Shown here: positions 21,662 to 36,913 of the stretch, piece by piece | Position numbering within the stretch: position 1 is the first letter of the stretch | Layout of the letters: every line of letters begins with the position of its first letter | Assembly (NCBI GenBank): GCA_035295045.1 | Contig: DATGJU010000429.1 | Coordinates: 1-39,629 of the forward strand | Direction of reading: 5' to 3' | From: Chthonomonadaceae bacterium | Lineage (GTDB): Bacteria > Armatimonadota > Chthonomonadetes > Chthonomonadales > Chthonomonadaceae | DNA: 39,629 nt | Program-made: the position numbers and the translations under genes | The notes under the pieces: model-generated | What the model was told of the DNA's origin: nothing | The model's database searches: none | What the model saw: the letters and a program-made list of their open reading frames with translations, nothing else

Positions 21662-23884
21662 CTACCTAGGCTGCACGTCCAGCGGGAACGCGGTAGCCTT
21701 CCACTTCGCGCCGATCGTGCTGGCCGCCGTTGCGTCCCGCGTGGTCGCGTTCGCGAGCAGCCGGCCAAAGGGATCGTTCAGCTCGGAGCCGCCGCGGCTG
21801 CCGGCCGCCGGAAGGCCACGGGACCGGATCGCGGGCACATCGAAGAGCGGTGCGAAATTCGCCTTGTTTTCCGTGGCGATCAAGATGAACGTCTCATGGC
21901 CGATCGGCTCCGTGAACTCGTATACAGCGTAGACGCCCGCGTCCTTCTCCAGAGGTAACCAGCGCTCGTTGACCGGAATCAAGTTGTCGATCGCGGCGGA
22001 CGGTACGGGCCACAGCGGGCCTATCGTGCCGTCCGGTCCGAGGTCGGCAATCGTCACGTACGCCGGCTTTGGTCCCCGGTTTCGGAGCTGCAGCCGAAAG
22101 AGCTGGCCAACTCGGGGCCGCGTTTCGCCGACGGCATCCGGAGCCAGCACGCGTATGTCGCGCTTCCACGCGTAGGTTCCCTTTTCGACTGGGTTTTCCG
22201 TTCCTTCGATCAGCACGATCTGAAGCTCGACGTGAATGTCCTGCCCGGCCTCCCAGCCGGGCCGGCTTGAGATGACCGGCAGATTGGACATGAGGCGGCG
22301 GCGAGTTTCGCGCCGCAGCGTCTCCCCGATGAGGTCCGCAAGCTTTTCATCATTTGGAAGCGACTGGATGAACGTGCCGTCGCCCGCCTCCGCGCTGAGA
22401 AGGCCGCCATCGGCGCGCCGGAACAGGACGAGACTCTCACGGGCCGCCGGGTCCGCGCCGCGGAGCGTCATGGAGCGCGGAGCGCCGGCCGGGTTCTTGA
22501 CGACGATCGTCCAGCCGCCGCCGGCAGCCGCCTGCGGCCGATGGTCCAGCCGGCCGAACGCCTCCGCGGCCGGGCAGATCTGAACGTCCCACGCATCGCC
22601 CACCGCGAGTGCCGCCAGACCGGTCTTGGTTAGCTCTCCGAGCGACTCGGCGATCTCTTTCGCGCGTGGGTGCATGGGGATGCGGCTGGTGTCGACGCGG
22701 ATCGGCTCTTCGCTATATACCATGCGCGTTACCCGCGCCCGTCCGGCGGCCAGATCGGCCAGGTGTTTGCCGGGCGCGTACTGGACGTTCAGCGACGACT
22801 CGAAGGCGCCCGGCGCGCTGACGGTCGCCGTGGCGATCGGCGTCCGGAAAGTCGTGTCTCCACTGGGGTAGATCGAGACTTCGGCGCCCATTCCAATCCC
22901 CACGAGCGTCCCGCCTTCGAGTAAGACGGCCGGCGGGCTCGCGTCGGCGTCGGTTTTGATCTCGAAATACCGCTTGGGCTCCAGGAGTCTGCCTCCCAGC
23001 AGCGAGGCGTCGAGCGGGCCCTCGATCTGCGGCGTCTGGCTCAGGCCCATGGTGCGCATCATCGTGGTGATCTGGTAGAAAAGGTCGCGATACGTGGTCT
23101 CGCTGGTCGCGGGGGCCAGCGCCTGGACCAGCGCATGGCTGAGCGAGCCCATCCGGACGCGTTTCACCTCGGTCTCGAAGTCCGATTCGTCGCTGCGGCA
23201 CGCCGAGATCGCTGTGAAGGGCTGGTCCGCGAGCGCGTTCGCTGGCAGGAATGGGCCTCGCCGCTCAAGCCGCGATTCATAGTCCGGGACGAACACGCGC
23301 TCGAACCCGCGCTTCCTGGGGCCGGGGTCGCGCGTGACCGTACCGGAGTGACAAGAGTCGAACGTCAGCAGAAAGGCAGTGAGCTGCCTGTCCCTGGCCG
23401 ACGCGAGCGTTCTTGCCAGCTCTTTGTCGCGGATGTCGTTGCTGCCGTCCTTTATCGACACGTAGTCGGAAGGCACAAGTGTCTGATCGAAGCCGAGGAT
23501 ATCCGCGTCATCCTTCACCTGCGAGCCATGGCCGGAGTAGTGGAAATAGAGGATATCGTTCGGCCGCGAGCCGGCGATGAACGACGCGAGCGCTCCCAGG
23601 ATCGCGCTCTTCTTCGTCAGCTCCGCGGTATCCAGGACCCGCACCTCGTCGAACTTCAACACGCCCTTCAACAGATCACCGAGCCGCTTGACGTCCTCCA
23701 GCGTATTGAGATCCTGCGCGCTGTCGTCGTCGCCGTTCCGGTAGTAGCCCTGGACGCCGACGATCAGCGCCCGCTTCCTGGGCGCGAGCTGCGCCTGACG
23801 GAATGCGGCGGCAGAGTGCGCGCCGAGCGTCAGCGACGCCGCGGCGCCTGCCACAAACGTTCTGCGAGAGACGGGACGGTTCAT
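21662..23884 (-). CDS. Tat-signal caspase-fold protease (peptidase C14) with C-terminal DUF4384-like domain (paralogue A)
   Basis: ATG 23884-23882 lies 7 nt after GGAG. MNRPVSRRTFVAGAAASLTLGAHSAAA matches the twin-arginine S-R-R-x-F pattern. Catalytic His in FHYSGHGSQ and catalytic Cys in TFDSCHSGT. C-terminal GQLFRLQLRNRGPKPAYVTIADLGPDGTIGPLWP looks like DUF4384. The track start at 24040 is a TTG with a non-signal leader. Confidence 0.93.
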   Translation of the reverse strand: MNRPVSRRTFVAGAAASLTLGAHSAAAFRQAQLAPRKRALIVGVQGYYRNGDDDSAQDLNTLEDVKRLGDLLKGVLKFDEVRVLDTAELTKKSAILGALASFIAGSRPNDILYFHYSGHGSQVKDDADILGFDQTLVPSDYVSIKDGSNDIRDKELARTLASARDRQLTAFLLTFDSCHSGTVTRDPGPRKRGFERVFVPDYESRLERRGPFLPANALADQPFTAISACRSDESDFETEVKRVRMGSLSHALVQALAPATSETTYRDLFYQITTMMRTMGLSQTPQIEGPLDASLLGGRLLEPKRYFEIKTDADASPPAVLLEGGTLVGIGMGAEVSIYPSGDTTFRTPIATATVSAPGAFESSLNVQYAPGKHLADLAAGRARVTRMVYSEEPIRVDTSRIPMHPRAKEIAESLGELTKTGLAALAVGDAWDVQICPAAEAFGRLDHRPQAAAGGGWTIVVKNPAGAPRSMTLRGADPAARESLVLFRRADGGLLSAEAGDGTFIQSLPNDEKLADLIGETLRRETRRRLMSNLPVISSRPGWEAGQDIHVELQIVLIEGTENPVEKGTYAWKRDIRVLAPDAVGETRPRVGQLFRLQLRNRGPKPAYVTIADLGPDGTIGPLWPVPSAAIDNLIPVNERWLPLEKDAGVYAVYEFTEPIGHETFILIATENKANFAPLFDVPAIRSRGLPAAGSRGGSELNDPFGRLLANATTRDATAASTIGAKWKATAFPLDVQPR

Positions 23885-24043
23885 CGCTTTGCTCCACACG
23901 CGTTCGGGAGCCGACGCGCACAGGTTGGCTGAAAGTGTCTTCCGGTAGATGTTCGAGGCACGGTGCTGAGCCATCCGCTCCGTCGGCGTCGCCCTTTCCC
24001 TGCTCATGCGAGTAGATTGGAGGCTGCCGACTGTTAACAAGAC

Positions 24044-24072
24044 ATTCTACCAGCAGAACAGGGAGATGGAAA
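24044..24072 (-). promoter_or_regulatory. Promoter candidate for caspase paralogue A (extended -10)
   Basis: Reverse strand: TTTCCA (24072-24067), 17-nt spacer, TG-g-TAGAAT (TG at 24052-24051, hexamer 24049-24044). Confidence 0.4.
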
Positions 24073-24133
24073 GGTTAAAGGACACTCTGTTGCGGTTGTA
24101 GAAATGCGATGCATACCGCGCATCGTAACCGTG

Positions 24134-24142
24134 TGATAGTAT
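24134..24142 (+). promoter_or_regulatory. Extended -10 candidate for caspase paralogue B operon
   Basis: TG-a-TAGTAT at 24134-24142, 42 nt upstream of ATG 24184. No convincing -35 element. Confidence 0.3.
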
Positions 24143-24183
24143 TGTGGTAGTCATCCTCTTGCACCTGGGAGAAACCGTTGACC

Positions 24184-26442
24184 ATGCAGATAAGTCGCAG
24201 AGCTCTTCTCGCTGTGGGCGCAGGCGCATTACTGGTCCCGGAGGTCGCGGTCGCCCGGCGTGCGCCCGCGGCCGGCGCGCCGGGGCGGAAGCGCGCGCTC
24301 ATTATCGCCATCGACAAGTACGCCCGCGAGAACGACCCGCACTCGGCGCGCGACCTGCACTGCCAGCGGGATGCCATGCTCCTCCAAAAAGTGCTGGAGT
24401 TCCACGGCTTCGCCGTGACCGCCAGGCGTAAACCGGAGGAGACACAAGGGCAGGGGATCAAGGATGCCCTGGCCGGCTTCCTGGCCGATACTCAGCCCAA
24501 CGACGTGCTGTTTGTACACTACTCCGGCCATGGCTCGCAGGTGGAGGATCCCGGCGACCCTCTGGGCTTCGATCAGACCCTGGTTCCCTCCGACTACAAG
24601 TCGACGAACGACGGCGCCAATGACGTTCCGGACAAGGTGCTTGCCGGAATCCTTCGGGCGGGTCTATCGAAAGTCAGGCCGGCCGCCTTCCTCCTCACAT
24701 TCGATTCCTGCCACTCGGGCACCATAACGCGCGACAGCGGCGTCGGGGAGCGGCGCGGGTTCGAGCGGGCCATCGCGAAGGGACTGCGCCGCGCGCTCGA
24801 CATGAAGCCCGGCCTCTACGCATCGGAGGCGATCGCGCAGCAGGGCTTCACCGCAATCTCCGCGTGCCGAAGCGCCGAGTCGGCGGTCGAGATCGACGAC
24901 GACGGCGAGCAGATGGGGGCGCTCAGCTACGCGCTGGTCAAGGCGCTTGGCGCCGCAACCGAGCTGACGACGTACCGCGACCTATTCGAAAACGTCACCT
25001 GCATCATGCGAGCAAAGGGCACGAGCCAGACGCCGCAGATGGAGGGTACGCCCGACCAGAAGCTGTTTTCCGCCGGCACGATCCAGCCGCGATCCTATAT
25101 CAAGATAGAGCGCGTCGACGACAAGGCCGTTCTGAAAGCCGGAAAGCTGATGGGAATCGAGGCCGGGACCAAGCTGGCTGTCTTCGCGCCGGACGCCGAC
25201 CTCAAGACCGGCAAATCGGTCGAAGGGGTGGTGAAGAACCCCGGCCTGACGGTGTCGGAGATCGAGGCGCCCGGCATGACCGTGACGGAGCTGAATGGCT
25301 GCCGCGCGGTCGTCACGGCGCTGGCATACCATGAGACGCCGCTGAAAGTCAGCGTCGCCCGGATCAGGCAGCATCACGGGTATGCGGCCATCGCGAAGAC
25401 GCTCGACGATATGAAGTCGCGCGGGCTGGTCGTGACGACAGAGGCGGACAAGGGCTGGGACATCCAGATTTGCCCCGCGGCCGAGGCGTGCAAAGGCGGA
25501 TTGCAGGGCGCGCAGCGCGGCGCCGGCGAGCGATGGGACGTCGAAGTGGCGCCCGTGCCGGGATCGGGCGTCGCGGAGCCGCGCAAGATGACGCTCGTGG
25601 GCGCGGACCCGTCGCTCAAGGAGAGCGTGATACTGCTTCGGGGTGATTCGTCGCTCCTCGCGTGCCAGGTCCGGCGCGTCACGCCAGACGGTAACAAGAA
25701 GGTCTCGCTCACCTCGCTTGCCGGCGACGATACGCTTCCAAGGAATATCGAGATCGCCCTGACGCGCGAGACGCGCCATCGCCTGATGTCGGGCCTGGTA
25801 GAAAAGCCGGGCGACGCCGACATCCATATCGAGATGCGGCTGTTCGAGTGCAACACGCAGCCCGACCTTGATCATCCGGGCAAAGTGGTGTACGTGTCCG
25901 ACAAGGGCAAGGGACCGCTTGCGTCCAGCCGGGACGCGATGCCGACGCTCAAGCTGGGCTCGCACTTCCGCATCGAGATGCGCAACACCGGCACAGTCAA
26001 GGCGCACGTGGCGCTGGTGGATCTCAATCCGCAGGGCGGAATCGGCCCGATGTGGCCCAATCCCGAAGCCGCGTCGATCGACAACGACTCGAACGTGATC
26101 CTTCCGGCCGAGCAGGGTAAGGAGGCGCCCTGGATCCCGCTCACCATGGGCAAGGGCGAGCCGTACAAACTCTGGACGGTCAGCGAACCGGTGGGGGTCG
26201 AGACGCTCGTCGCCATCGCCACGCGCGAATTTGCGGACTTCGGCCCGCTGTTCGACCTGCCGGCCGTGGATCGCGGCATGAGCGGCAAGCGCGGGCCGGG
26301 TCCGGAGATCAACTCGCCACTCGGCAAGCTCTTTGCGAACTACACGAAGCGCGACGCCGACTCCGACAGCGAGGTACCGAATAACTGGACCGCAAGCGCT
26401 TGCCACGTCGCGTTTGCGGCGCCGGAGCGGCCGGCGCAGTGA
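24184..26442 (+). CDS. Tat-signal caspase-fold protease (peptidase C14) with C-terminal DUF4384-like domain (paralogue B)
   Basis: ATG 24184 after GGGAGA (the track start at 24178 is TTG). MQISRRALLAVGAGALLVPEVAVA. Catalytic His in VHYSGHGSQ and catalytic Cys in TFDSCHSGT. GSHFRIEMRNTGTVKAHVALVDLNPQGGIGPMWP looks like DUF4384. Colinear with paralogue A over its full length. Confidence 0.93.
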   Translation: MQISRRALLAVGAGALLVPEVAVARRAPAAGAPGRKRALIIAIDKYARENDPHSARDLHCQRDAMLLQKVLEFHGFAVTARRKPEETQGQGIKDALAGFLADTQPNDVLFVHYSGHGSQVEDPGDPLGFDQTLVPSDYKSTNDGANDVPDKVLAGILRAGLSKVRPAAFLLTFDSCHSGTITRDSGVGERRGFERAIAKGLRRALDMKPGLYASEAIAQQGFTAISACRSAESAVEIDDDGEQMGALSYALVKALGAATELTTYRDLFENVTCIMRAKGTSQTPQMEGTPDQKLFSAGTIQPRSYIKIERVDDKAVLKAGKLMGIEAGTKLAVFAPDADLKTGKSVEGVVKNPGLTVSEIEAPGMTVTELNGCRAVVTALAYHETPLKVSVARIRQHHGYAAIAKTLDDMKSRGLVVTTEADKGWDIQICPAAEACKGGLQGAQRGAGERWDVEVAPVPGSGVAEPRKMTLVGADPSLKESVILLRGDSSLLACQVRRVTPDGNKKVSLTSLAGDDTLPRNIEIALTRETRHRLMSGLVEKPGDADIHIEMRLFECNTQPDLDHPGKVVYVSDKGKGPLASSRDAMPTLKLGSHFRIEMRNTGTVKAHVALVDLNPQGGIGPMWPNPEAASIDNDSNVILPAEQGKEAPWIPLTMGKGEPYKLWTVSEPVGVETLVAIATREFADFGPLFDLPAVDRGMSGKRGPGPEINSPLGKLFANYTKRDADSDSEVPNNWTASACHVAFAAPERPAQ

Positions 26443-26459
26443 GTTTGGAGCGTCCGCGA

Positions 26460-29131: not shown

Positions 29132-29177
29132 CGAAACCGGCAACCCGCAATCGCGCAATCAACACCCTGTCACCGAC

Positions 29178-29204
29178 TGCCGATTGCCGATTGCCGATTG
29201 CCGT
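29178..29204. repeat. Heptanucleotide microsatellite (TGCCGAT)3 plus TGCCGT
   Basis: TGCCGATTGCCGATTGCCGATTGCCGT, in the 90-bp gap between the convergent genes ending at 29131 (+) and 29222 (-). Confidence 0.8.
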
Positions 29205-29221
29205 CCCAGTGCCAGCTATAG

Positions 29222-32200
29222 CTACTTCTTCGCCGGCAGGCGGGCCAATTGAAAGTCGTTCTGCAGGTTCAGCCGGCGCGTGATGGGCCGCTGCCGATGG
29301 TCGGTCCGCGCGTCCACCTCCCGCGCGACGTAGGCATTCAGGCCGGTGACCGTCACGGCGCCGTCGGGGCCTGCCGCCTTGCCGCCGAGGCCGTCCAGCA
29401 GGCACTGCGTGAAGATGCCGTGCGCGCGGTCCTCGGCGGCTGTCTCGATTCCTCGCGAAGCGGCGATCACCGTCGCGCCGCTGCCATGCTCCACCGTGAA
29501 GAACTGCTCCTGCAGAATGTCGAACGCGCTCTCCTTGCCCCTGTCCGAGTTGACGAGCCGGGTGCCGCGCCCGTTCGAGCCGCCTGCCGCCACGGGCTTT
29601 GCCGATCGGTCGACCTCGCCGGCATGGCAGGTATCCATCATCAGCAGCTTCTGCCGCGCGTCTACGCCGTCCAGCAGTCCTTCGATCGCATCGTAGGAGA
29701 GACCCTTGGCGGCTGGCGCTCCGAAGTCCACGTCGTGCGTTGCGAAGTAGTAGTCGAGCTTGCCGTCCAGAAGCCCGTGGCCTGCGATGAAGACCACAAC
29801 GGTGTCGTCCGGCTTCGCAGCCGCCAGGAACTCCCGCGCGGCGACGATGTTGTCGTGTGTCGCCTGGTCGTTGAGCAGCACCTTGCGATGCGGCGGCCCG
29901 GAGTACCCGCCTGCGCGAGAAGAATCGCAGAACAGGTCCGCCACGGAGGTCGCGTCGACGTCCGCCGACTTCAGGCGATAGGCGTCCCCGGCTGCATATT
30001 GCGAGATGCCGACCGAAAGGACATAGAGCTCGCGGTGCGGCTCCGCGGTGCAGCTCACAACCGCTTCACGCGCGAGGCTCTCCGTGCCCTGGTCGTTGAC
30101 CGCGGACACCTGCAGGCGGTTCACGCCGGCGGCCAGCGGCACGACGATCTCGCCGCTCCATCGTCTCGCGCTCTGTGCCGAGATGTCCATGCCGGCCGAG
30201 CCATGGTTTGCTCGCCCCGCTGCCGTAAACGTCGCCGGAACCCCGTTCGCAACGACGCGAATTCGCGAGATAGGGTGGCCGTCGTCGGAGATCGATACCC
30301 GCAGGCGCGCGTCTCGCTCCGGAGTGGATAGCGAGAGCGCCCTGGTATCGAGCGTGAGGTCCGGCACGTCGACCGCGCCGCCGACCTGCTGCTCGGAGAC
30401 GCGCGCCAGCTCCAGCCGCTTTTCGTGCGCGGTCCGATAGGTGGCGAGCAGGCCTGTCTCCGCCACACCCATCGACTCGAGCACGCGATCGGGCCGATTG
30501 TACCGCAAGTCGAACTGCTCCAGCGGATAGGCGCGGCCCGCCAGCCGGAAGGCGACGCCGCCGTAGGCCCCCATCGAGGCCAGATAGTCGCCCGCCGGCG
30601 TGGCCGCCATATACTGGTCGTCGTCCACCCCGATGAGACGGACCATCTCGCGGCCCGTGGCGGCGTCCCATAGGCGGGCCTGGGCGTCCGCGCCCGCCGT
30701 CGCGATACGACGGCCGGAGGGGTCGAACGCGGCGGCAAAGAGGGAGTCGCCGGAGCCGCGGACCGTGCGGACGAGGCTGAAAGTCTCGGCGTCGAAGACC
30801 CGGGCCGCGCCGTCCGAGCACGCCGCGACGAGCTGGCCGCCGTCCGGTCGCCAGGCCACGCGAATCCCGTGCGCATCACCAAGCGGGACGCTGCGGATGC
30901 GCTCACCGGACGGATACTTCCAGACGGTTATCTGGCCGCCGAATATCGACGCGCTCGCCGCGGCGATGCGCGCTCCATCCGGGCTTATTGCGAGCGAGCG
31001 CGTATCCGGCGGCGCTTCCCACTCCGCGACGCGCGCTCCGGTTTCGACGGACCAGACGCGTATCGCGCTCGGCTTCTGCAAGTCCTTGCTGTCAATCGTC
31101 GCCAGCGTCTTCCCATCCGCCCCGAACTCGATCACGTCCGCCGAGTCCTTCGGCAGGTGGAGCGTGCGCACGAAGCCGCCGGTGTCGCTGTCCCAAATCT
31201 CGATGCTGTCGCCCTCGGTCCCGTCGGCGATGAAGCTCTCCAGGTTCCGGTGAGCGGTCGCAATTCGGGAGCCGTCGCGCGACCAGGCCACGGAGTTGAG
31301 TCCGCCGCCCCGGGAATAGCCCTCGACGACCTTGCCGCTCTCGAAGTCGATGCGAAGCAGGCTCCAGGCGTTGCCGACGAGCACCTGCCGGCCGGTCGGG
31401 TCGAAGGCGATCGAGGCGATAGCCTCGAACCGGCCGCCAAGCGGAAGCTGCCGCGTCTTGTTCGTGGCGGCGTCCCAGAGCGTCACGATGCCGCCGCCGC
31501 CGTACGGCGGGCTGGCGACCGCCGCGATCGCCTGGCCGTCCGCGCGCACAGCCAGGTTCTGCGCCGGGATGCTGGCCTGCCGGATCTGCCTGCCGCTCTT
31601 CGGATCCCACCACCGCACGGTCCGGTCCGCGCCGGAGCTGATCACCGAAACGCCGTCCGGCGCGAACGTTACGGCGGCCACGGCGCCGGCATGGCCCTTG
31701 AGCACCGCGACCGGCTGTCGCGTCGCCACGCTCCACAGGCGGACGGTCCCGTCCGTCCCTCCTGCCGCGAGCATCGTGCCGTCACGGTTGAAGGAGACTC
31801 GGTAGACCGCGAACTGGTTCGCGGACGGGAAGTCAAAGCTCGCCGACAGATCTCCCGAGGAGGTGTTCCACACGTCGATGTGGGAGCCGCCGCCGGATGC
31901 CGCGAGCAGGCGACCGTCCGGACTGAACGCCAGTCCGGATCCGAAATAGAAGCTCGATCCCTTGAAGCTGCGGATCGTCGCTCCGGTTGCGGCGCTGTAG
32001 AGCGTCACTTGCTCGCTTTCCGAGAGGGTCGCGATGATGTCGCCGGCCTGTGTGAACGCCACGGCGTCGATGCTGTTGGCCGCCGGCGACCAGACGCGCG
32101 CCTGCTGGCCGGTCGCGACATTCCAGAGCGTCACCGTCGTGCTGGGGGTCTTCGGGTCGATCCGCCCGGTATAGCCGTTGACCATCCACTGCGCGTCCGC

Positions 32201-34198
32201 GCTGAAGGCGGAGGAGTGCGCGCGCTGACGGAGAATCTCCCGCGGCTCGACACCCAGGGTGCGGACCGCCGCGCCCGTCCGCGCGGACCAGATTCGCGTC
32301 AGGCCATATTGTCCCTTGAGCGGTCCTGCGAACCTTTCCCCGGTCGGGTCGAACGCGAGCATGTGTCCGAATCTGCCGGGACTGCCCCCGTTGTCGGCGC
32401 ATTCCGTGACCGTAACGGACGGACGGGCGGTCTGGAGATTCCACAGCCGCACGCTGCCGCCACGGTCTGCGACGGCGAGCGTGTCGCCCTGCGGCGCGAA
32501 AGCCACCGTCGAGCTGACGCGCGCGTGCTGCCCGAGGTCCGCGAGGAGCGTTCCGGATGCCGTATCCCAGGCCTTCAGCTCCGAGATGCCGCCGCCGCCG
32601 CCTCCCGCGATCAGCACGCGTCCTCCCTGCACGAAGGCCAGAGCGTCGACGCTGTGCTCGACACCGTGAAGCTGTCGCTTCCGCCTCGACTTCAGGTCCC
32701 ACAGGTCCAGGCTCTGTTCGGCCTTCGTGATTCCCTCATGCCGCACCGCCAGCGCGGACCCGTCCGGCGAGATCGCGAGGGCGACGGCGGCCCGAGCCCC
32801 GCTTCCGATCTCGGCCGCGGGCCGCATGTCGGCGATCGTCCAGCAGCGGATGTGGCCCGGCTTGTCCTCGAACCGCTTGCCGCACCCGGCGATCAGAGTG
32901 TCGCCGGCCGGCGTGAACACCAGCGCGTTGATCTCATCGCCCTGGCTGGAGAGCTCGCCGGTACGCCTCCTGGCGGCCAGGTCCCACACCTCGATCGCGC
33001 CCTTCGCGCTGGCTACCGCAAGCGTCTTGCCGTCGGCCGTCACGGCGCAGGGCCCCCGATAGACGCCGTCTGCCGCCAGTGCGGCGGTCTGCTGGCCGGT
33101 CGCGATATCCCACAGACGGAGCGACTGTCCGGCCGTAATGAGCATGTCCCGACCCGGCACGACCGCCATGTCGTCGCAGTCGGTATTGATCTGGAACAGA
33201 GGCTGCAGGCTGGCGGTCGACCAGATGCGGATGCTGCTTTCACGCGTCATGAGCCGCGTGCCGTCTTTGCTGTACAGCACCTGCCGCACGCCGCGGGAGA
33301 AGCCGCCCAGCGTCCGGATAGACCGGAGGCTGTGAACGTCCCAGAATACCACCTCGTGCGGCCCCTGGTCCTTGCCGGACGCCACCGCCATTTCGTCGCC
33401 GGAAGGGTGGAGCGCCACGAAGTTGATGCCGTCCGCGTGGCCGGTCTGAGGAACGAGCACGGGTGTGGCCGGGTCCTCGGCAATCGCGCCGCCGGTAAGC
33501 CGCTGGGAATTCGCGCGTGACTTGCCGGCCTCTTGCGCCAGCGCCAGCGCCTGGTCCTTCAGCGTGTTGGCCTCCGCGAACCGGCTCGCGCGCGCCAGCA
33601 CATCGGAGGCGCGCAGGAGCAGCGCGCCCTCGAACCCGGGGTCCCTGTCCTTGGCGCGCGCGGCCGCTGCGCCGCGCTTGAAGGCGTCCACCGCGGCGTC
33701 GACGTAGCCGAGCCGCTCCAGGACTCTCGAGGCGTCCAGGACCACGGATACGCGTATGGGCGCCGTATCGAGCGTCACGGCGAGGGCGATGGCGCGATTG
33801 AGACGCTTCCGCGCATCCTCCTTCGGCGTTGCGGCGTCGGCGGCCCAGAGTATCTGGACCTTGAAGCTCTCGCGCAATAACAGCTCCATGCCCTGCGCAT
33901 CGCGCACCACTTTGAGCTTTCGGTCGGCGAGCTGTGCGGCCTCGTCATACCGCTTATCGTGTAGGTCGAGCTCGATGAGGCCGAACACGGGGGTCGCATC
34001 CTCCGGAACGAGCTCGGAGGCTTGGCTGAGCAGGTCGCGCCCGGCATTGAGGTCCTTCGCCTTCAGGGCGGCGGTCGCCCTCTGGATCAGGTCGGCCTCG
34101 CGCTTGTGCGCGTCGTCCTGCGGTGGTTGAGCCGCCACCGGCGCGGCGATGAGAATGGCGAGCGCCGCGGCTGGGGCTGCGCGGAGGATCGAGATCAT
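29222..34198 (-). CDS. Giant exported protein (1658 aa): signal peptide, TPR-like helical region, ~1000 aa of WD40 repeats, Ig-like segment, C-terminal caspase (peptidase C14) domain
   Basis: Signal peptide MISILRAAPAAALAILIAAPVAAQ. Helical N-region to ~aa 230. Dozens of WD-like blades (e.g. SVRLWNL, TVRLWSV, TVRWWDP, IRVWSV, ARLWDA, IEVWDL). Caspase domain at ~aa 1395-1658 (nt ~29225-30016) with VVFIAGHGL (His) and LLMMDTCHAGE (Cys). Confidence 0.95.
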   Translation of the reverse strand: MISILRAAPAAALAILIAAPVAAQPPQDDAHKREADLIQRATAALKAKDLNAGRDLLSQASELVPEDATPVFGLIELDLHDKRYDEAAQLADRKLKVVRDAQGMELLLRESFKVQILWAADAATPKEDARKRLNRAIALAVTLDTAPIRVSVVLDASRVLERLGYVDAAVDAFKRGAAAARAKDRDPGFEGALLLRASDVLARASRFAEANTLKDQALALAQEAGKSRANSQRLTGGAIAEDPATPVLVPQTGHADGINFVALHPSGDEMAVASGKDQGPHEVVFWDVHSLRSIRTLGGFSRGVRQVLYSKDGTRLMTRESSIRIWSTASLQPLFQINTDCDDMAVVPGRDMLITAGQSLRLWDIATGQQTAALAADGVYRGPCAVTADGKTLAVASAKGAIEVWDLAARRRTGELSSQGDEINALVFTPAGDTLIAGCGKRFEDKPGHIRCWTIADMRPAAEIGSGARAAVALAISPDGSALAVRHEGITKAEQSLDLWDLKSRRKRQLHGVEHSVDALAFVQGGRVLIAGGGGGGISELKAWDTASGTLLADLGQHARVSSTVAFAPQGDTLAVADRGGSVRLWNLQTARPSVTVTECADNGGSPGRFGHMLAFDPTGERFAGPLKGQYGLTRIWSARTGAAVRTLGVEPREILRQRAHSSAFSADAQWMVNGYTGRIDPKTPSTTVTLWNVATGQQARVWSPAANSIDAVAFTQAGDIIATLSESEQVTLYSAATGATIRSFKGSSFYFGSGLAFSPDGRLLAASGGGSHIDVWNTSSGDLSASFDFPSANQFAVYRVSFNRDGTMLAAGGTDGTVRLWSVATRQPVAVLKGHAGAVAAVTFAPDGVSVISSGADRTVRWWDPKSGRQIRQASIPAQNLAVRADGQAIAAVASPPYGGGGIVTLWDAATNKTRQLPLGGRFEAIASIAFDPTGRQVLVGNAWSLLRIDFESGKVVEGYSRGGGLNSVAWSRDGSRIATAHRNLESFIADGTEGDSIEIWDSDTGGFVRTLHLPKDSADVIEFGADGKTLATIDSKDLQKPSAIRVWSVETGARVAEWEAPPDTRSLAISPDGARIAAASASIFGGQITVWKYPSGERIRSVPLGDAHGIRVAWRPDGGQLVAACSDGAARVFDAETFSLVRTVRGSGDSLFAAAFDPSGRRIATAGADAQARLWDAATGREMVRLIGVDDDQYMAATPAGDYLASMGAYGGVAFRLAGRAYPLEQFDLRYNRPDRVLESMGVAETGLLATYRTAHEKRLELARVSEQQVGGAVDVPDLTLDTRALSLSTPERDARLRVSISDDGHPISRIRVVANGVPATFTAAGRANHGSAGMDISAQSARRWSGEIVVPLAAGVNRLQVSAVNDQGTESLAREAVVSCTAEPHRELYVLSVGISQYAAGDAYRLKSADVDATSVADLFCDSSRAGGYSGPPHRKVLLNDQATHDNIVAAREFLAAAKPDDTVVVFIAGHGLLDGKLDYYFATHDVDFGAPAAKGLSYDAIEGLLDGVDARQKLLMMDTCHAGEVDRSAKPVAAGGSNGRGTRLVNSDRGKESAFDILQEQFFTVEHGSGATVIAASRGIETAAEDRAHGIFTQCLLDGLGGKAAGPDGAVTVTGLNAYVAREVDARTDHRQRPITRRLNLQNDFQLARLPAKK

Positions 34199-34262
34199 TT
34201 CGGAAAACCCCGGGCGAAAACGTTGCGCGCCGTTGGGACGGCGCTAAGATGCGCGACCCGCA

Positions 34263-34271
34263 ATTATACCA
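34263..34271 (-). promoter_or_regulatory. Extended -10 promoter candidate for the WD40-caspase gene
   Basis: Reverse strand reads TG-g-TATAAT (TG 34271-34270, TATAAT 34268-34263), ~65 nt upstream of ATG 34198. The -35 element is weak. Confidence 0.4.
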
Positions 34272-34879
34272 CCGCGAGAACTCACCATGCCGGCTCCGGT
34301 GCGCGTCCTGCCGGCCGTCCGGTCCGGCTCGGCGCGGATTCCGGTTTGCGGGGGCGCTGTTTTACGGCGCCGCGGTGGGCGCCAGAACGTCATTTCGGCG
34401 CAATTCAAGCTGCTTCGCTAAACGATCGATCTTTTTTCTGAGCGGCGTCCCGTAAACGTTGCAAACGGACAGGTTATTAGGCTAAAATACGTGGTGCTTT
34501 CACTGGAGATTCGGGCGGCGGCGACCAATCATGAGAATCGGGATGGTGTTCCCATTTCCAATTCCACGCGGCGTCCGTCCAACCAACCTGTCCGGCACGG
34601 TCGACGGTCCGCTAGCAGCATCAGCAAGCGCACGATCGAACGTAACGCCGGATAGGTCAAGTCGCAACGAATCGACAGTTGGAATCACGGGCCGGCAGAG
34701 ACTCGCGACGGCCCTGCCCCTTCAAAACTACGCACCTTCTTTCAGTGCAGCGATATGCGACTGGACATAGCCTGATCGTACACCCGGACGTGCATGATCG
34801 ATGGGTGAACTTCGACGAGCGAAATCACGCGCGTTAGCGCGTTCATTATGCTCGCCTCTTTACGAGTGAGGAAATATCC

Positions 34880-36913
34880 ATGCGCATAGAACGCTGGTTC
34901 TGGCTGCCCATATTCAGCGTCCTCTCGCTCATACTGCATTTCTCGGTGGTATTCGTTACGCGCGGCCTGGGCCTTGGGGGACCGATGCGGACGCCGGAAG
35001 CGCCGAGCATCGAGGTAACGTTCGAGGCGCCGGCGACGCCTCCGCAGCCAAAGCGTATTGAGCCGTCGCCGAAGCCGAAGCGCGAGCCTGTTCACGCTCC
35101 GCGACTCGCGGTCCACACGACTCCGGCGCCCGTGCCCGCGCGCCACGAGATCACACACGCCGTGGTCCACGCGGCGCGAAGCCATCCGGTCGCCGCGGCG
35201 CTGCCTGCGCGCGTGAGTCACGAGTCGCCCGCGCCGAGAGAGGCGCGAGTCGCCCCCGTCCGCCGCGCCTCGGCGCCTGCGGTGGCCGCGAGCGACTCCG
35301 CCAGCCCGTCCCGTCCCGTCACGCGCGCCTCGGAGACTACGCCGGACTCCCCGCGAAATGAGGTGCGCTATCCCGCGGCCGAGAACGTAAGCCTTACCGA
35401 CATTCGCCGGCCGGCTGGCGGCGGCTCCGTAATGCACGACCGCGCCGCGAATCCGCTGGGCGACGGCATGCCGAACGATGCTCCCGAGATGGGCGTTCGC
35501 ACTACCATCGTAACTGCCGCGAGGATCAAGAAGAATAAGCGGGACCTGCGGCTGGCCGCGGGCTCCGCCAGGCAGGAGTCGACGACGCGCGCAAGCGAGA
35601 TTTCCGCGGATAGCCCGAGCAATGACGTGGCATACGCGTCCGGTGGAAGCGGCGGCCCGGCAGCGGATACGGGTCCCCACGACTCGGCGGCCAATGCGTC
35701 GGTGCTCCACGTCACCAGCGATAACCCGCTAGGCGACGCGATCCCGGACGATCGACCGGGCGGCGGGGCCGTGGCCTCGGCCGCGCCCATGGCGGGGATA
35801 CATCGCGGCGGCTCCGGCGGTGGCCCGATCGTCGGCTCCGGCGTCCCCGGGCCATCAAACGTTCGCGGCCGTGCGGGCTTCTACGCGCCGGATTCGCCCG
35901 CCGGCAACGGCGGCTACGGCGGCAGCGGCGGACCGGCCGTCGCGAGCGACGGGCCGGCGCCCGGAGGCGCTGGGCGCGGCAGAGCGTTCCATGGGCCGGG
36001 CAGCAACCCGCTCGGCGACGCCGTTCCCGAAGATAAGCCCGGCGCGGGGCCGGGTTCGGGCGGCGGACTAGGCGGCCCGGGGGCGGGCCAGGCGCTTGCC
36101 GGCCTTCGACGCGGCGGCGCGCCCAGGCTGGGAGCGGCGGCGCCCCACCCGGAGTTGAGAGGGCGCGGCGGCGGCGGCGCGCCGAACCGCGGACCGGACC
36201 GGCCCGGCGTCCAGACTGTAGCCTCCAATGCCCGCGTGCAGGACTCCGGCGACAGCGATCCGCCGCCGACCCATCATACGGCATCGGCTACGAAGATCAA
36301 CAACGTCGGCAGGATACTGCGCGATGCGATTGGAGCGCCGGGGCGGGGCGCCTTGTTCGAGCTGCGGCCCACCAACGGCAGTGACACGCCGGTTCACATC
36401 GTCTACGCGATGGACACGTCGAAGAGCATGGCGGACGGGGCGAAGATCCTGAAGGCGAAGGAGGCGCTGAAGAAGGCGCTTGGGGAGCTTCGGCCGACCG
36501 ATACCTTCAATATCATCACCTTCACGCGCGAGACGGCGCTCTTCCAGGACGACGCCGTACCGGCAACTTCGGACAACATCACCTACGCGCGCAACTACGT
36601 CGACGACATACGCCTCGGCCCAGGTACCAACATCTCCGGCGCCATGGAGCTCGCCCTCCGAATGCGCGGCGTAACGCACATCATGGTTATGTCGGACGGA
36701 GAGCCGAACGGCGGGATCGAGGACTTCGCCAAGCTGCGCAGGTTCATCCGTGAGCACAACACCCACAACGTCAACATCACGACCTTCGCGTTGGGCCTTG
36801 GCGAGAAGTTCCCCGGAATGAAGCTCCTGAAGGCGGTTGCGGACGAGAACGGCGGCACCTACGACTACGTCAACATGAACAAGATATCGAGGCCGCCCGG
36901 CGTGATCCAGTAG
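34880..36913 (+). CDS. Membrane-anchored von Willebrand factor A (vWA) protein with TonB-like N-terminal anchor, Pro-rich spacer and three degenerate internal repeats
   Basis: SD GAGGAAA before the ATG. TM helix WFWLPIFSVLSLILHFSVVFV. Pro/Lys/Glu spacer PATPPQPKRIEPSPKPKREP. Repeats are marked by NPLGD at nt 35450, 35723 and 36005. vWA domain ~nt 36392-36874 with MIDAS motif DTSKSM (36413-36427) and later MSDGEPN. Confidence 0.9.
   Translation: MRIERWFWLPIFSVLSLILHFSVVFVTRGLGLGGPMRTPEAPSIEVTFEAPATPPQPKRIEPSPKPKREPVHAPRLAVHTTPAPVPARHEITHAVVHAARSHPVAAALPARVSHESPAPREARVAPVRRASAPAVAASDSASPSRPVTRASETTPDSPRNEVRYPAAENVSLTDIRRPAGGGSVMHDRAANPLGDGMPNDAPEMGVRTTIVTAARIKKNKRDLRLAAGSARQESTTRASEISADSPSNDVAYASGGSGGPAADTGPHDSAANASVLHVTSDNPLGDAIPDDRPGGGAVASAAPMAGIHRGGSGGGPIVGSGVPGPSNVRGRAGFYAPDSPAGNGGYGGSGGPAVASDGPAPGGAGRGRAFHGPGSNPLGDAVPEDKPGAGPGSGGGLGGPGAGQALAGLRRGGAPRLGAAAPHPELRGRGGGGAPNRGPDRPGVQTVASNARVQDSGDSDPPPTHHTASATKINNVGRILRDAIGAPGRGALFELRPTNGSDTPVHIVYAMDTSKSMADGAKILKAKEALKKALGELRPTDTFNIITFTRETALFQDDAVPATSDNITYARNYVDDIRLGPGTNISGAMELALRMRGVTHIMVMSDGEPNGGIEDFAKLRRFIREHNTHNVNITTFALGLGEKFPGMKLLKAVADENGGTYDYVNMNKISRPPGVIQ

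What the first reader, a model, noticed from the sequence alone, without database searches (positions are those of the whole stretch)
21662..36913. Candidate envelope-located caspase module: three exported caspase-fold proteases plus CHASE2, a secreted partner and an anchored vWA protein
Six neighbouring genes form four transcription units: paralogue A (-); paralogue B, CHASE2 and a secreted protein (+; 17-nt gap then a 4-nt overlap); the WD40-caspase (-); and vWA (+). Every product carries an export or anchoring signal. These are Tat-like SRRTFVAGAAA and SRRALLAVGAG, Sec-like MISILRAAPAAALAILIAAPVAAQ and MRNLLGALAATITVALANPAGASAQ, and TM helices in the CHASE2 and vWA proteins. All three caspase domains keep the His/Cys dyad (HYSGHGS/FDSCHSG twice, FIAGHG/MDTCHAGE), so they look catalytically competent. 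The bacterial caspase/CHAT systems I know of are cytoplasmic and paired with an NTPase, gasdermin or CRISPR component: gasdermin-activating proteases, type III-E CRISPR-associated CHAT, and STAND/caspase conflict systems. None of those partners is present here. WD40, vWA and CHASE2 are all ligand- or protein-binding modules. My inference is a periplasmic proteolytic sensing or cascade system for envelope surveillance, kin or phage sensing, or regulated surface remodelling.
Basis: partly seen in the sequence, partly recalled or inferred. Interest (0 to 1): 0.85.

Follow-up and report, generated by a model that had tools for sequence, protein, structure and literature searches.

The report
Exported caspases with CHASE2 receptor pair
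A membrane CHASE2 receptor, its secreted MtxA-like partner and exported caspase-type proteases form a gene set that recurs in many uncultured bacteria, which points to an undescribed protease-linked signalling system working outside the cytoplasm.

Summary
Every product has an N-terminal export or anchor segment by my heuristic scan; SignalP and TatP were not available.

The secreted "orphan" P4 belongs to a large family (167 clusters). Its predicted fold (beta domain, basic flexible linker, Ig-like domain, TPR) best matches MtxA of Magnetospirillum, whose gene also sits next to a CHASE2 gene.

- In 17 of 17 related loci with upstream DNA, a CHASE2 gene directly precedes the P4 homologue, and three database proteins fuse the two.
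- In 9 of 12 informative loci a caspase-fold protease gene (C14 or CHAT) with an N-terminal signal-like segment lies next to the pair.
- The receptor's cytoplasmic N-terminus varies: none, a disordered tail (this window), TIR, HTH or kinase.
- One divergent relative (L084) keeps caspase-DUF4384, CHASE2, P4 and the vWA gene in the same order.

The core triad is therefore a real conserved module, and vWA is probably linked. Paralogue A and the WD40-caspase fit the theme but are not shown to be conserved here.

The mechanism is inferred: an Arg/Lys-specific protease cleaves the partner or receptor in the periplasm. I found no paper describing the triad. Verdict: new variant of known kinds, interest about 0.65.

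The parts
24178..26442 (+). Paralogue B. Tat-signal (SRRALL, residues 6-11) metacaspase-type C14 protease with beta-rich middle domains and a DUF4384-like C-terminus. First gene of the operon. The database call starts at the ATG at 24184.
   Evidence: Pfam C14 2e-24. H118, C178, D65 and D176 are invariant in alignment A1. The AF2 model's best PDB matches are metacaspases AtMC9/AtMC4, MALT1 and TbMCA2. L084 holds a 50%-identical homologue in the same position.
26460..28169 (+). CHASE2 membrane protein. It has a 139-aa Ala/Pro/Gly/Arg-rich cytoplasmic N-terminal tail, TM1, the periplasmic CHASE2 domain, three C-terminal TM segments and no recognisable output domain.
   Evidence: Pfam CHASE2 7e-18. 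TM scan. N-tail composition. Homologue P0123, 45% identical, in L084.
28166..29131 (+). P4, the MtxA-like secreted partner of CHASE2. Order of parts: signal peptide, N-terminal beta domain (residues 31-96), helix, flexible basic linker GGRPRD (129-134), Ig-like sandwich (138-229), five-helix TPR (232-309).
   Evidence: 167 representative homologues. AF2 pLDDT 88.5. Foldseek top hit 4z29, MtxA, E 3.5e-5. A CHASE2 gene lies directly upstream in 17 of 17 loci. CHASE2-P4 fusions P0138, P0142 and P0164.
28550..28567 (+). Codons for the conserved basic linker motif of P4 (GGRPRD; family consensus Y-G-R-x-G-G-R-x-R-G). Candidate cleavage site for an Arg/Lys-specific protease.
   Evidence: The column of R133 is R or K in 60 of 62 family members. 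It lies in a coil of lower pLDDT (60-77) between two folded parts. MtxA has a trypsin-sensitive flexible linker at about residue 141 (PMC4439547). Cleavage here is an inference.
21662..23884 (-). Paralogue A. Tat-signal (SRRTFV) C14 protease with a DUF4384-like C-terminus, 41% identical to B and divergently transcribed. The ORF runs upstream to a TTG at 24040, but the ATG at 23884 is the likely start.
   Evidence: Pfam C14 8e-21. Alignment A1. GGAG lies 8-11 nt upstream of the ATG. A promoter-like site at 24072-24044(-) overlaps the alternative start.
29222..34198 (-). Exported 1658-aa WD40-caspase. Order of parts: Sec-like signal peptide, TPR-like N-region, several WD40 propellers, a conserved middle domain, C-terminal C14 domain (GHG / DTCHAG). 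Convergent with the operon.
   Evidence: Pfam. NCBIfam caspase_w_EACC1, 84 bits, below the 140-bit cut-off. Homologues of the middle and caspase parts (34-36% identity) in Nitrospiraceae loci L055 and L060. Not present between P4 and vWA in L084.
34880..36913 (+). Membrane-anchored vWA protein. Order of parts: N-terminal TM, Pro-rich spacer, three NPLGD(A/G)xP(D/N/E)D repeats (residues 191, 282, 376), C-terminal vWA domain with a MIDAS DTSKS motif.
   Evidence: Pfam VWA_3 8e-10. TM scan. Repeats and MIDAS motif. The N-terminal 216 aa are 43% identical to a gene about 500 nt downstream of P4 in L084 (E 1e-36).
23885..24177 (.). Divergent intergenic region between A and B, presumed to hold both promoters.
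   Evidence: Promoter-like site on the minus strand at 24072-24044. Consensus match only.

Best explanation
**What it is.** The core of the region is a three-part module that works outside the cytoplasm.
1. A CHASE2 membrane protein with its sensor domain in the periplasm. Its only cytoplasmic parts are an N-terminal segment and a short C-terminal tail.
2. A secreted MtxA-like partner, P4, on the same side of the membrane as the CHASE2 domain.
3. One or more exported caspase-fold proteases of the Arg/Lys-specific metacaspase/orthocaspase type. Each carries a binding domain (DUF4384-like, WD40, TPR or Sel1).

**Proposed mechanism (inferred).**
- The protease is exported, by Tat for A and B and by Sec for the WD40-caspase.
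- It is activated in the periplasm, probably by ligand binding through its non-catalytic domains and by self-cleavage in the disordered basic loop after the catalytic Cys.
- It then cuts the receptor complex. The most likely site is the conserved, exposed GGRxRG linker of the MtxA-like partner.
- This changes the state of the CHASE2 protein. The change reaches the cytoplasm through the receptor's N-terminal segment. In this window that segment is a 139-aa disordered tail; in relatives it is a TIR, HTH or Ser/Thr-kinase domain.
- In this genome the module has expanded to two Tat paralogues, a giant WD40-caspase and a membrane-anchored vWA protein. The vWA protein may act as an adaptor or substrate.

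**Shown versus inferred.** Shown: the domain identities, the conserved gene linkage and fusions, and the consistent N-terminal signals. Inferred: actual export, which protein is cleaved, the direction of signalling and the biological trigger.
For: **Gene linkage.** A CHASE2 gene lies directly upstream of a P4 homologue in 17 of 17 loci with upstream DNA.

**Fusions.** CHASE2-P4, HTH_3-CHASE2-P4 and TIR_2-CHASE2-P4 exist as single proteins. Two of them show three TM segments plus a fifth hydrophobic segment before the P4 domain. The TIR fusion scores two plus that segment, with the conserved third-TM motif below my threshold. Read as three, this places P4 on the CHASE2 side of the membrane.

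**Protease adjacency.** A caspase-fold gene is adjacent in 9 of 12 distinct informative loci:
- the window;
- L084;
- L091, L092 and L104/L106 (TPR-CHAT);
- L095 (two C14 genes);
- L096 (Sel1-C14);
- L099 (TIR-CHASE2, P4, C14);
- L102 (C14 with a DUF4384-like C-terminus, then a CHAT gene).

Every adjacent protease whose N-terminus is on the contig starts with a signal-like or anchor segment.

**P4 fold.** The model has pLDDT 88.5, and the top PDB match is MtxA, E 3.5e-5. MtxA is a 313-aa periplasmic protein. Its gene neighbours a CHASE2 gene, and it has a trypsin-sensitive flexible linker (PMC4439547).

**P4 linker.** The R133 column is R or K in 60 of 62 members and sits in a low-confidence coil.

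**Protease type.** The dyad and both S1 Asp residues are invariant. The corresponding Asp95 and Asp211 of TbMC2 accommodate basic P1 residues (PMC6426788). The closest structures are metacaspases and MALT1.

**Protease loop.** A disordered loop (residues 180-220) with invariant R185 and R193 follows the catalytic Cys.

**Relative.** L084 keeps B, CHASE2, P4 and vWA in order at 38-50% identity.
Against: - No experiment or dedicated predictor confirms export of any of the proteins.
- No cleavage has been shown, and the GGRxRG linker could be conserved for other reasons.
- The known caspase-CHASE2 fusions put the caspase in the cytoplasm (PMC3501461, PMC8195603).
- Two CHASE2-P4 loci (L090, L101) have no caspase-fold gene in 5 kb and 17.6 kb of sequence, so the protease is not obligatory.
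- The closest full-length homologues of B (L081-L083) and 80 more distant caspase loci have no CHASE2, P4 or vWA within 10 kb. Most members of this caspase family therefore work without the pair.
- The sample is small: 18 metagenome loci, many on short contigs.
- In L084 the B homologue is cut off exactly at the catalytic Cys. This is either a pseudogene or an assembly artefact.
- The window's CHASE2 protein has no recognisable output domain.
Confidence: 0.5

Rival explanations
1. The protease is the output rather than the input. The CHASE2 protein and its MtxA-like partner sense a periplasmic or external cue. They then release, tether or activate the exported caspases. The caspases degrade or remodel envelope proteins, giving surface remodelling, growth arrest or suicide. 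The vWA protein would be a substrate or scaffold.
For: The gene linkage is the same as for the best explanation. Most CHASE2 partners, including the window's, have no cytoplasmic output domain, so a periplasmic output is plausible. The multiple proteases with different binding domains (A, B, WD40-caspase) look like effectors with different targets. TPR, Ig-like and vWA modules are typical protein-protein scaffolds.
Against: Relatives carry TIR, HTH or kinase domains on the cytoplasmic N-terminus of the CHASE2 protein. That argues for information flowing into the cell. The conserved basic linker in P4 suits a substrate role for P4 itself.
Confidence: 0.25
2. This is a surface-protein maturation or anchoring system. 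The exported clan-CD proteases would process or transpeptidate envelope proteins such as the vWA protein, as gingipain-family PorU does in type IX secretion and as legumain-type ligases do. The CHASE2 protein and P4 would be accessory membrane factors.
For: The vWA protein is membrane-anchored, carries three conserved NPLGD...P.D repeats and is conserved beside the operon in L084. Its vWA domain resembles that of a sortase-target family, TIGR03788, at 72 bits, far below the cut-off. From general knowledge, not tested here: caspase-fold enzymes outside the cytoplasm are known to act in protein sorting.
Against: The vWA gene appears in only one of the related loci. TIR, HTH and kinase fusions to the CHASE2 protein have no obvious place in a sorting machine. 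No secretion-system genes lie in the window.
Confidence: 0.1
3. The caspases act in the cytoplasm or at the inner face of the membrane. On this reading the N-terminal hydrophobic segments are not cleaved export signals. The proteases would dock on the cytoplasmic N-terminal tail of the CHASE2 protein. This matches the known metacaspase-CHASE2 fusion proteins, where the receptor senses outside and the caspase acts inside.
For: The Trichodesmium metacaspase-CHASE2 fusion and the EACC2-caspase-CHASE2 proteins place the caspase on the cytoplasmic side (PMC3501461; PMC8195603). In P4-linked receptors the effector position (TIR, HTH, kinase) is also the cytoplasmic N-terminus. Export was tested only with a crude script.
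Against: Every adjacent protease with a complete N-terminus, of five different architectures, has an N-terminal signal-like segment, as do 18 of 19 members of the A/B family. The four closest sequences share a twin-arginine motif in one alignment column. According to PMC6426788, DUF4384 often co-occurs with N-terminal kinase domains; my recollection that it lies on the extracytoplasmic side of such kinases was not tested here. None of the proteases has a further TM segment to hold it at the membrane.
Confidence: 0.08
4. Only the operon is a unit. Paralogue A, the WD40-caspase and the vWA gene would be independent genes that happen to lie nearby in a genome rich in caspase homologues.
For: The WD40-caspase is absent from the equivalent position in L084. 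Relatives of B often sit among other caspase or CHAT genes without CHASE2 (L082, L083). Caspase genes therefore cluster for reasons unrelated to CHASE2. No conserved partner for A was found.
Against: The vWA gene is retained next to the operon at 43% identity in L084. Several loci have two caspase-fold genes beside the CHASE2-P4 pair (L095, L102). L089 has a signal-bearing WD40 protein divergent from the pair. All six products share the extracytoplasmic signal pattern.
Confidence: 0.3

Closest known systems
MtxA (MGR_0208) and its neighbouring CHASE2/adenylate-cyclase-like gene in Magnetospirillum (PDB 4z29; PMC4439547)
   Same: Both are secreted proteins of about 313-321 aa with a signal peptide. 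Both have an N-terminal domain joined by a flexible, protease-sensitive linker to an Ig-like sandwich plus a short TPR. Both genes are adjacent to a CHASE2 membrane protein gene. MtxA is the best structural match (Foldseek E 3.5e-5, target TM-score 0.66).
   Different: No sequence similarity is detectable, even with a 62-sequence profile. The gene order is reversed: mtxA precedes the CHASE2 gene. The MTB receptor is reported to have an adenylate-cyclase-type output. No caspase partner is reported, and the MtxA paper states that no homologues were known.
Periplasmic FecR/LysM protein plus CHASE2 histidine kinase operons ('BiofilmReg', Burkholderia; PMC5192318)
   Same: A signal-peptide-bearing periplasmic accessory protein is encoded next to a CHASE2 receptor with the 1+3 TM topology.
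   Different: That receptor has a C-terminal PAS-HisKA-HATPase output and a response regulator. Its accessory protein belongs to Pfam FecR/LysM, and P4 matches neither family. No protease is involved.
Metacaspase-CHASE2 fusion proteins (Trichodesmium metacaspase-CHASE2, PMC3501461; EACC2-caspase-CHASE2, PMC8195603)
   Same: They link a caspase-fold protease and a CHASE2 sensor in one system.
   Different: In the fusions the caspase is N-terminal to TM1 and so is predicted to be cytoplasmic. Here the proteases are separate and carry export signals, and a third conserved component (P4) is present.
Orthocaspases and type I metacaspases (MaOC1, TbMCA2), and Tat-signal pseudo-orthocaspases of cyanobacteria (PMC6426788)
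   Same: All share the C14B-type p20 fold, the His/Cys dyad and the two acidic S1 residues that predict Arg/Lys specificity. DUF4384 and WD40 accessory domains are already catalogued for this group, and a twin-arginine N-terminus has precedent.
   Different: The Tat-bearing cyanobacterial forms lack the catalytic dyad, whereas A and B keep it. No link to a CHASE2/MtxA-like pair has been described for them.
Extracellular protease cascade acting on a receptor with a cytoplasmic TIR domain (Toll/Spaetzle), and site-1 cleavage of periplasmic anti-sigma domains (DegS/RseA, FecR). These are analogies of mechanism only.
   Same: A protease outside the cytoplasm acts on a receptor-bound protein and so switches a membrane protein whose effector is inside the cell. 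Some relatives carry a TIR domain there (L099, P0164).
   Different: There is no homology of the proteases, ligands or receptors. The direction of signalling here is unproven.

Membership tests
Peptidase C14 (metacaspase/orthocaspase type, C14B) | Match to the Peptidase_C14 profile above the curated cut-off | tested here: met
   A 75.2 bits, B 87.0 bits, WD40-caspase C-terminus 46.4 bits, against a cut-off of 21.4.
Peptidase C14 (metacaspase/orthocaspase type, C14B) | Catalytic His and Cys at the aligned dyad positions | tested here: met
   H118 (SGHG) and C178 (DSCHSG) of B are invariant in 19 family members. The same motifs occur in A, and GHG / DTCHAG in the WD40-caspase.
Peptidase C14 (metacaspase/orthocaspase type, C14B) | Acidic S1 pocket (equivalents of TbMC2 Asp95 and Asp211) that predicts cleavage after Arg/Lys | tested here: met
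   D65 (in C-x-x-D) and D176 (two residues before the Cys) are invariant in A1. The roles of Asp95 and Asp211 are taken from PMC6426788. For the WD40-caspase only the Asp two residues before the Cys was checked.
Peptidase C14 (metacaspase/orthocaspase type, C14B) | Caspase-hemoglobinase fold | tested here: met
   The AF2 model of B (pLDDT 73) best matches AtMC9, AtMC4, MALT1, GSU0716 and TbMCA2, with E 3.5e-11 to 3e-7.
Peptidase C14 (metacaspase/orthocaspase type, C14B) | Proteolytic activity and autoprocessing | not testable with these tools
   The only hint is a disordered loop (residues 180-220) with invariant R185 and R193.
DUF4384 (PF14326) | Profile match above the gathering score | tested here: inconclusive
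   A scores 23.5 bits and B 19.8 bits against a cut-off of 27. Many full-length homologues carry a precomputed PF14326 hit.
CHASE2 receptors (PF05226) | CHASE2 profile match, with one TM segment before and three after the domain | tested here: met
   65.5 bits against a cut-off of 26.3. Hydrophobic segments lie at about residues 141-157, 453-469 and 493-509, with a weaker one at 513-528. The flanks follow the positive-inside rule (heuristic scan).
CHASE2 receptors (PF05226) | Cytoplasmic output domain C-terminal to the last TM segment (cyclase, kinase or GGDEF in classical members) | tested here: not met
   Only about 40 residues follow the last TM segment and they match no Pfam domain. In this subfamily any effector domain is N-terminal: TIR, HTH or Pkinase.
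MtxA-like periplasmic proteins | Ig-like sandwich followed by a short TPR, preceded by a separate N-terminal domain and a signal peptide | tested here: met
   AF2 pLDDT 88.5. Foldseek top hits are 4z29_A and 4z29_B (E 3.5e-5, probability 1.0, target TM-score 0.66). The architecture of MtxA is taken from PMC4439547.
MtxA-like periplasmic proteins | Detectable sequence homology to MtxA | tested here: not met
   A profile of 62 P4-family members finds only generic TPR chains in PDB sequences at E up to 10 and does not find 4z29. Common ancestry therefore rests on fold, architecture and gene context.
MtxA-like periplasmic proteins | Gene adjacent to a CHASE2 gene | tested here: met
   17 of 17 loci with upstream DNA, plus three fusion proteins. 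For MtxA itself the adjacency is stated in PMC4439547.
Tat-exported proteins | Twin-arginine motif (S/T-R-R-x-F-L-K-like), a moderately hydrophobic h-region and an AxA site at the N-terminus | tested here: inconclusive
   SRRTFV in A and SRRALL in B at residues 6-11, each followed by a hydrophobic stretch. The RR is shared by the closest homologues P0002 and P0003 in the same column. TatP and SignalP were not available, and more distant relatives have Sec-type N-termini.
von Willebrand A domain proteins | vWA profile match and a MIDAS DxSxS motif | tested here: met
   VWA_3 39.5 bits against a cut-off of 27. DTSKS at residue 512, with downstream Thr and Asp positions present.
Known caspase-containing defence systems (gasdermin systems, type III-E CRISPR Csx29, STAND/EACC systems, PADLOC models) | Presence of the partner gene (gasdermin, Cas7-11, STAND NTPase or EACC component) or a system-level model hit | tested here: not met
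   PADLOC returns only a generic 'caspase' model for the three proteases and nothing for CHASE2, P4 or vWA. NCBIfam caspase_w_EACC1 is far below its cut-off, 84 bits or less against 140. No such partners lie among the immediate neighbours. A kinase-AAA_16-TPR gene lies 8 kb away.

The most novel reading that the evidence does not exclude
This would be a bacterial counterpart of a protease-gated receptor pathway working outside the cytoplasm.
- Exported caspase-fold proteases, possibly acting in series (A, B, WD40-caspase), sense a foreign or self-derived cue in the periplasm.
- They cleave the MtxA-like protein at its GGRxRG linker.
- The cleaved partner gates a CHASE2 receptor whose cytoplasmic N-terminus carries a TIR, kinase or HTH effector, or in this window a disordered tail.

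The result would be an envelope-level danger- or kin-sensing system. It would be analogous in logic, not ancestry, to the Toll/Spaetzle cascade.
Probability: 0.15. Interest if true: 0.9.

Novelty: new variant of a known kind. Interest (0 to 1): 0.65.

Why it matters
- CHASE2 is among the most widespread bacterial sensor domains for which no ligand is known, and MtxA has been treated as an orphan of magnetotactic bacteria. If MtxA-like proteins are general partners of a CHASE2 subfamily, with exported caspase-fold proteases as a third component, both problems gain a concrete hypothesis that can be tested: proteolytic gating of the receptor.
- It would also place catalytically intact bacterial caspase homologues in the periplasm. 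They would be coupled across the membrane to effectors such as TIR domains. That extends the 'bacterial apoptosis/immunity' repertoire from cytoplasmic NTPase-driven systems to the cell envelope.
- The module occurs in poorly studied soil and peat lineages (relatives in Armatimonadota, Acidobacteriota, Gemmatimonadota and Nitrospirota). No function can be borrowed from model organisms.

Tried and rejected
1. **Caspase-side neighbourhood test.** I fetched 80 genome loci around relatives of B and searched them by tblastn for CHASE2, P4 and vWA. There were no hits. The three closest full-length homologues (L081-L083) have caspase, CHAT, TPR or S8 neighbours but no CHASE2. The link is visible from the P4 side, not from the caspase side.
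2. **Word-index homologue search for P4.** It returned only P4 itself. The exhaustive HMMER search was needed. One of its hits, P0179 (a 1096-aa fn3 repeat protein with seven short stretches), looks spurious and I ignored it.
3. **Family libraries for P4.** Pfam (E up to 10), NCBIfam and PADLOC gave nothing for P4 itself. Scanning 48 family members gave only weak TPR hits and a single DUF928 hit at E 0.18. The FecR-like look of the N-terminal beta domain is only my impression.
4. **Sequence link to MtxA.** A profile search against PDB sequences did not find it.
5. **First metagenome scan.** I repeated the scan with an 11-sequence subset.
6. **Genomic-island idea.** A tRNA-Phe gene lies just after the vWA gene, but its 3' end is not duplicated anywhere in the window and there is no GC shift.
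7. **Rfam.** Only the tRNA was found.
8. **Promoter and terminator scans.** Terminator-like hits were no more frequent than in shuffled sequence; promoter-like hits exceeded the shuffles (8 against a mean of 1.9), but most lie outside the module and none is decisive.
9. **Taxonomy.** I could not settle it. The only named close relative is a Chthonomonadaceae (Armatimonadota) protein.

Full report
**1. The observation**

Each has the high third-position GC (0.79-0.86) typical of genes in this 67% GC sequence.

Pfam confirms the domain calls:

| Gene | Coordinates | Pfam result |
|---|---|---|
| Paralogue A | 21662-23884 (-) | Peptidase_C14 8e-21; DUF4384 23.5 bits (cut-off 27) |
| Paralogue B | 24178-26442 (+) | Peptidase_C14 2e-24; DUF4384 19.8 bits (cut-off 27) |
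| CHASE2 protein | 26460-28169 (+) | CHASE2 7e-18 |
| P4 | 28166-29131 (+) | none |
| WD40-caspase | 29222-34198 (-) | many WD40 propellers; C-terminal C14 5e-12 |
| vWA protein | 34880-36913 (+) | VWA_3 8e-10 |

The vWA protein has an intact MIDAS motif (DTSKS). The 17-nt gap between B and CHASE2 and the 4-nt overlap between CHASE2 and P4 are exact. The long ORF of A most likely starts at the ATG at 23884. That start is preceded by GGAG, and a promoter-like -10 element overlaps the upstream TTG.

No signal-peptide predictor was available, so I used a hydrophobicity and motif script.
- A and B have SRRTFV and SRRALL at residues 6-11, each followed by a hydrophobic stretch.
- P4 and the WD40-caspase have Sec-like N-termini.
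- CHASE2 shows two clear C-terminal hydrophobic segments plus a weaker third, read as a 1+3 TM pattern.
- vWA has one N-terminal TM segment.
- Seven of eight cytoplasmic control proteins from the same window have nothing comparable; the ABC ATPase ORF scores 1.77 at its uncertain start.

**2. The caspase paralogues**

B has about 40 full-length homologues at 26-43% identity. They are annotated in Pyrinomonadaceae, Blastocatellia and Chthonomonadaceae, and appear in Armatimonadota, Gemmatimonadota and Myxococcota MAGs.

In a 19-sequence alignment, H118, C178, D65 and D176 of B are invariant. D65 and D176 correspond to Asp95 and Asp211 of T. brucei metacaspase 2, which accommodate basic P1 residues (PMC6426788). 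These enzymes should therefore cut after Arg or Lys.

The AF2 model of B (pLDDT 73) best matches plant metacaspases 9 and 4, MALT1, GSU0716 and TbMCA2. It has a disordered loop (residues 180-220) right after the catalytic Cys. That loop holds the invariant R185 and R193 and is a plausible self-processing site; this is an inference.

18 of 19 family members have an N-terminal hydrophobic segment. The four closest sequences share the twin arginines in one alignment column.

**3. The secreted protein P4 is the key**

The word-index search found no relatives. The exhaustive HMMER search found 167 representative clusters, nearly all about 310 aa long. Three are fusions: CHASE2-P4, HTH_3-CHASE2-P4 and TIR_2-CHASE2-P4. 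In two of the fusions three TM segments and a fifth hydrophobic segment, the former signal peptide, separate the CHASE2 domain from the P4 domain. In the TIR fusion my scan scored only two TM segments plus that segment, although the conserved third-TM motif (IIWDDF...) is present. Read that way, both domains lie on the same, outer side of the membrane.

A 62-sequence alignment gave a confident AF2 model (pLDDT 88.5) with this order of parts:
- a signal helix;
- a beta domain (residues 31-96);
- a helix;
- a coil of lower confidence (127-137);
- an Ig-like sandwich (138-229);
- a five-helix TPR (232-309).

The only significant PDB match is 4z29, the C-terminal Ig-like plus TPR part of Magnetospirillum MtxA (E 3.5e-5).

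The MtxA paper describes a 313-aa protein with a signal peptide. It has two parts joined by a flexible, trypsin-sensitive linker near residue 141. Its gene is followed by a conserved CHASE2/adenylate-cyclase-like gene, and 'no homology' was known (PMC4439547). Sequence profiles do not connect P4 to MtxA, so I call P4 MtxA-like on fold, architecture and gene context.

The P4 coil carries the family's most distinctive motif, Y-G-R-x-G-G-R-x-R-G. The column of R133 is Arg or Lys in 60 of 62 sequences.

**4. Gene neighbourhoods**

Starting from the caspase side there is no link.
- 80 genome loci around relatives of B contain no CHASE2, P4 or vWA homologue within 10 kb.
- The three closest homologues sit among other caspase, CHAT, TPR or subtilase genes.

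Starting from the P4 side the picture is different.
- A metagenome scan recovered 18 loci.
- The only close homologue of the window's CHASE2 protein led to locus L084.
- With locally built HMMs, a CHASE2 gene lies immediately upstream of the P4 homologue in all 17 loci that have upstream DNA.

Twelve distinct loci, counting the window, show at least one complete or identifiable neighbour. Nine of them have a caspase-fold gene directly adjacent:

| Locus | Adjacent caspase-fold gene(s) |
|---|---|
| Window | C14-DUF4384 (B, with A and the WD40-caspase nearby) |
| L084 | C14-DUF4384 |
| L091 | TPR-CHAT |
| L092 | TPR-CHAT |
| L104/L106 | TPR-CHAT; the receptor here is Pkinase-CHASE2 |
| L095 | two C14 genes; same metagenome as the window but a different contig |
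| L096 | Sel1-C14 |
| L099 | C14; the receptor here is TIR_2-CHASE2 |
| L102 | C14 with a DUF4384-like C-terminus, followed by a CHAT gene |

L089 has a signal-bearing WD40 protein cut by the contig end, so it is ambiguous. L090 and L101 have no caspase-fold gene. Every adjacent protease with a complete N-terminus begins with a signal-like or anchor segment.

L084 is especially informative. It keeps a B homologue (50% identity), CHASE2 (45%) and P4 (38%) in the same order. About 500 nt further on lies a homologue of the vWA protein (43% over the first 216 residues). That homologue keeps the TM segment and the first NPLGD repeat. There is no WD40-caspase between them.

**5. What it most likely is and how it works**

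Shown:
- a conserved triad of a CHASE2 membrane protein, an MtxA-like secreted partner and an exported caspase-fold protease;
- a variable cytoplasmic N-terminus on the receptor: none, a disordered tail, TIR, HTH or kinase.

Inferred:
- The proteases are exported, by Tat for A and B and by Sec for the WD40-caspase.
- They are activated in the periplasm and cut the receptor complex, most plausibly at the exposed basic linker of the partner.
- This switches the CHASE2 protein, and its N-terminal segment carries the signal into the cell.

The window's receptor has only a 139-aa Ala/Pro/Gly/Arg-rich tail, so its downstream output is unknown. I put about 0.75 on the triad being a functional envelope unit and about 0.3 on the specific cleavage step. 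The combined statement is scored 0.5.

The main rival, at 0.25, reverses the order: the receptor and partner control the proteases, which then act on envelope targets. Lesser rivals are:
- a surface-protein maturation role centred on the vWA protein;
- cytoplasmic caspases docking on the receptor tail, as in the known fusion proteins;
- independence of A, the WD40-caspase and vWA from the operon.

**6. Comparison with what is known**

The parts are known kinds.
- C14B proteases with DUF4384 or WD40 domains, metacaspases with N-terminal TM segments or signal peptides, and one metacaspase-CHASE2 fusion were catalogued in 2012 (PMC3501461).
- EACC2-caspase-CHASE2 fusions were described in 2021 (PMC8195603).
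- Tat-like N-termini were proposed for catalytically dead cyanobacterial pseudo-orthocaspases (PMC6426788).
- CHASE2 receptors with a secreted accessory protein are known from the FecR/LysM 'BiofilmReg' operon (PMC5192318) and from mtxA.

In four full-text searches (CHASE2 paired with CHAT domain, caspase, FecR and CHAT) I found no paper that describes three things:
- the MtxA-like family as a general CHASE2 partner;
- its systematic adjacency to exported caspase-fold proteases;
- TIR, HTH or kinase domains at the N-terminus of this receptor subfamily.

PADLOC models do not cover it. I therefore class it as a new variant of known kinds, not a categorically new system.

**7. Limits**
- Export is not verified by a dedicated predictor or by experiment.
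- The B homologue in L084 is truncated exactly at the catalytic Cys, with ftsZ upstream. This is either a pseudogene or a chimeric assembly.
- The source organism is unknown. The contig recurs in three soil- or peat-type metagenome assemblies, and relatives suggest Armatimonadota.

Noticed in passing
window 37003-37075 (-): A tRNA-Phe (GAA) gene lies 90 nt after the vWA stop codon, beyond a GC-rich hairpin at about 36940-36971. I looked for a duplicated tRNA 3' end that would mark a genomic island. None was found, and there is no GC shift.
   Followed up: yes
window 10421-13270 (-): This gene encodes a Ser/Thr kinase, a STAND-like AAA_16 NTPase and TPR repeats (949 aa). It lies about 8 kb upstream of paralogue A, separated by an ABC transporter, a response regulator, a GAF histidine kinase and a GNAT gene. 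Its PADLOC hits are to generic kinase models (mad6, PD-T4-6). No link to the caspase cluster was tested.
   Followed up: partly
window 15300-15460: Three tandem copies of a 54-nt G-rich unit (CCCCCAGAATTGGGGGGTTGGGG...), 67-100% identical. They lie inside or next to the ABC-2 permease ORF region.
   Followed up: no
window 29173-29203: A 7-nt tandem repeat (CCGATTG, 4.4 copies) lies in the 90-nt convergent spacer between the P4 and WD40-caspase stop codons.
   Followed up: no
window 34880-36913 (residues 191, 282, 376 of the vWA protein): Three copies of a peptide repeat, (S/A)(V/F)(M/L)H...NPLGD(G/A)xP(N/D/E)D(A/R/K)P, sit in the Gly/Pro/Ala-rich spacer between the TM anchor and the vWA domain. 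The first copy is conserved in the L084 homologue. The N-terminal TM plus Pro-rich spacer looks TonB-like, but Pfam gave no match.
   Followed up: partly
L084 1-300: The homologue of B is cut off exactly at the catalytic Cys: the frame reads ...LI*CHSGTITRD. An ftsZ start lies on the opposite strand just upstream. This is either a 5'-truncated pseudogene or a chimeric metagenome assembly.
   Followed up: partly
L099 832-4375: One operon holds TIR_2-CHASE2 (560 aa), a P4 homologue and an exported C14 caspase. This is the clearest case of a cytoplasmic TIR domain coupled to the periplasmic triad.
   Followed up: partly
L095 (Ga0209168_10000373) 2604-10798: A second CHASE2-P4 locus comes from the same JGI metagenome as the window's contig (Ga0209168). 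It has two signal-bearing C14 genes and an unannotated 526-aa gene between them, on a different contig and with divergent sequences.
   Followed up: partly
L055 and L060 (Nitrospiraceae MAGs), about 1460-5450: Homologues of the WD40-caspase lie within 5-9 kb of another caspase of the A/B-related family. They match its middle domain and caspase domain at 34-36% identity and also have WD40 repeats. Exported caspases therefore also cluster without CHASE2.
   Followed up: no
window 1-10280: The left part of the window encodes a glucuronyl-esterase-like protein, two PhyH dioxygenases (one fused to HEAT repeats), a signal-bearing sulfatase with a PA14 domain and two unannotated secreted proteins. 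This looks like a polysaccharide-degradation neighbourhood unrelated to the finding.
   Followed up: no
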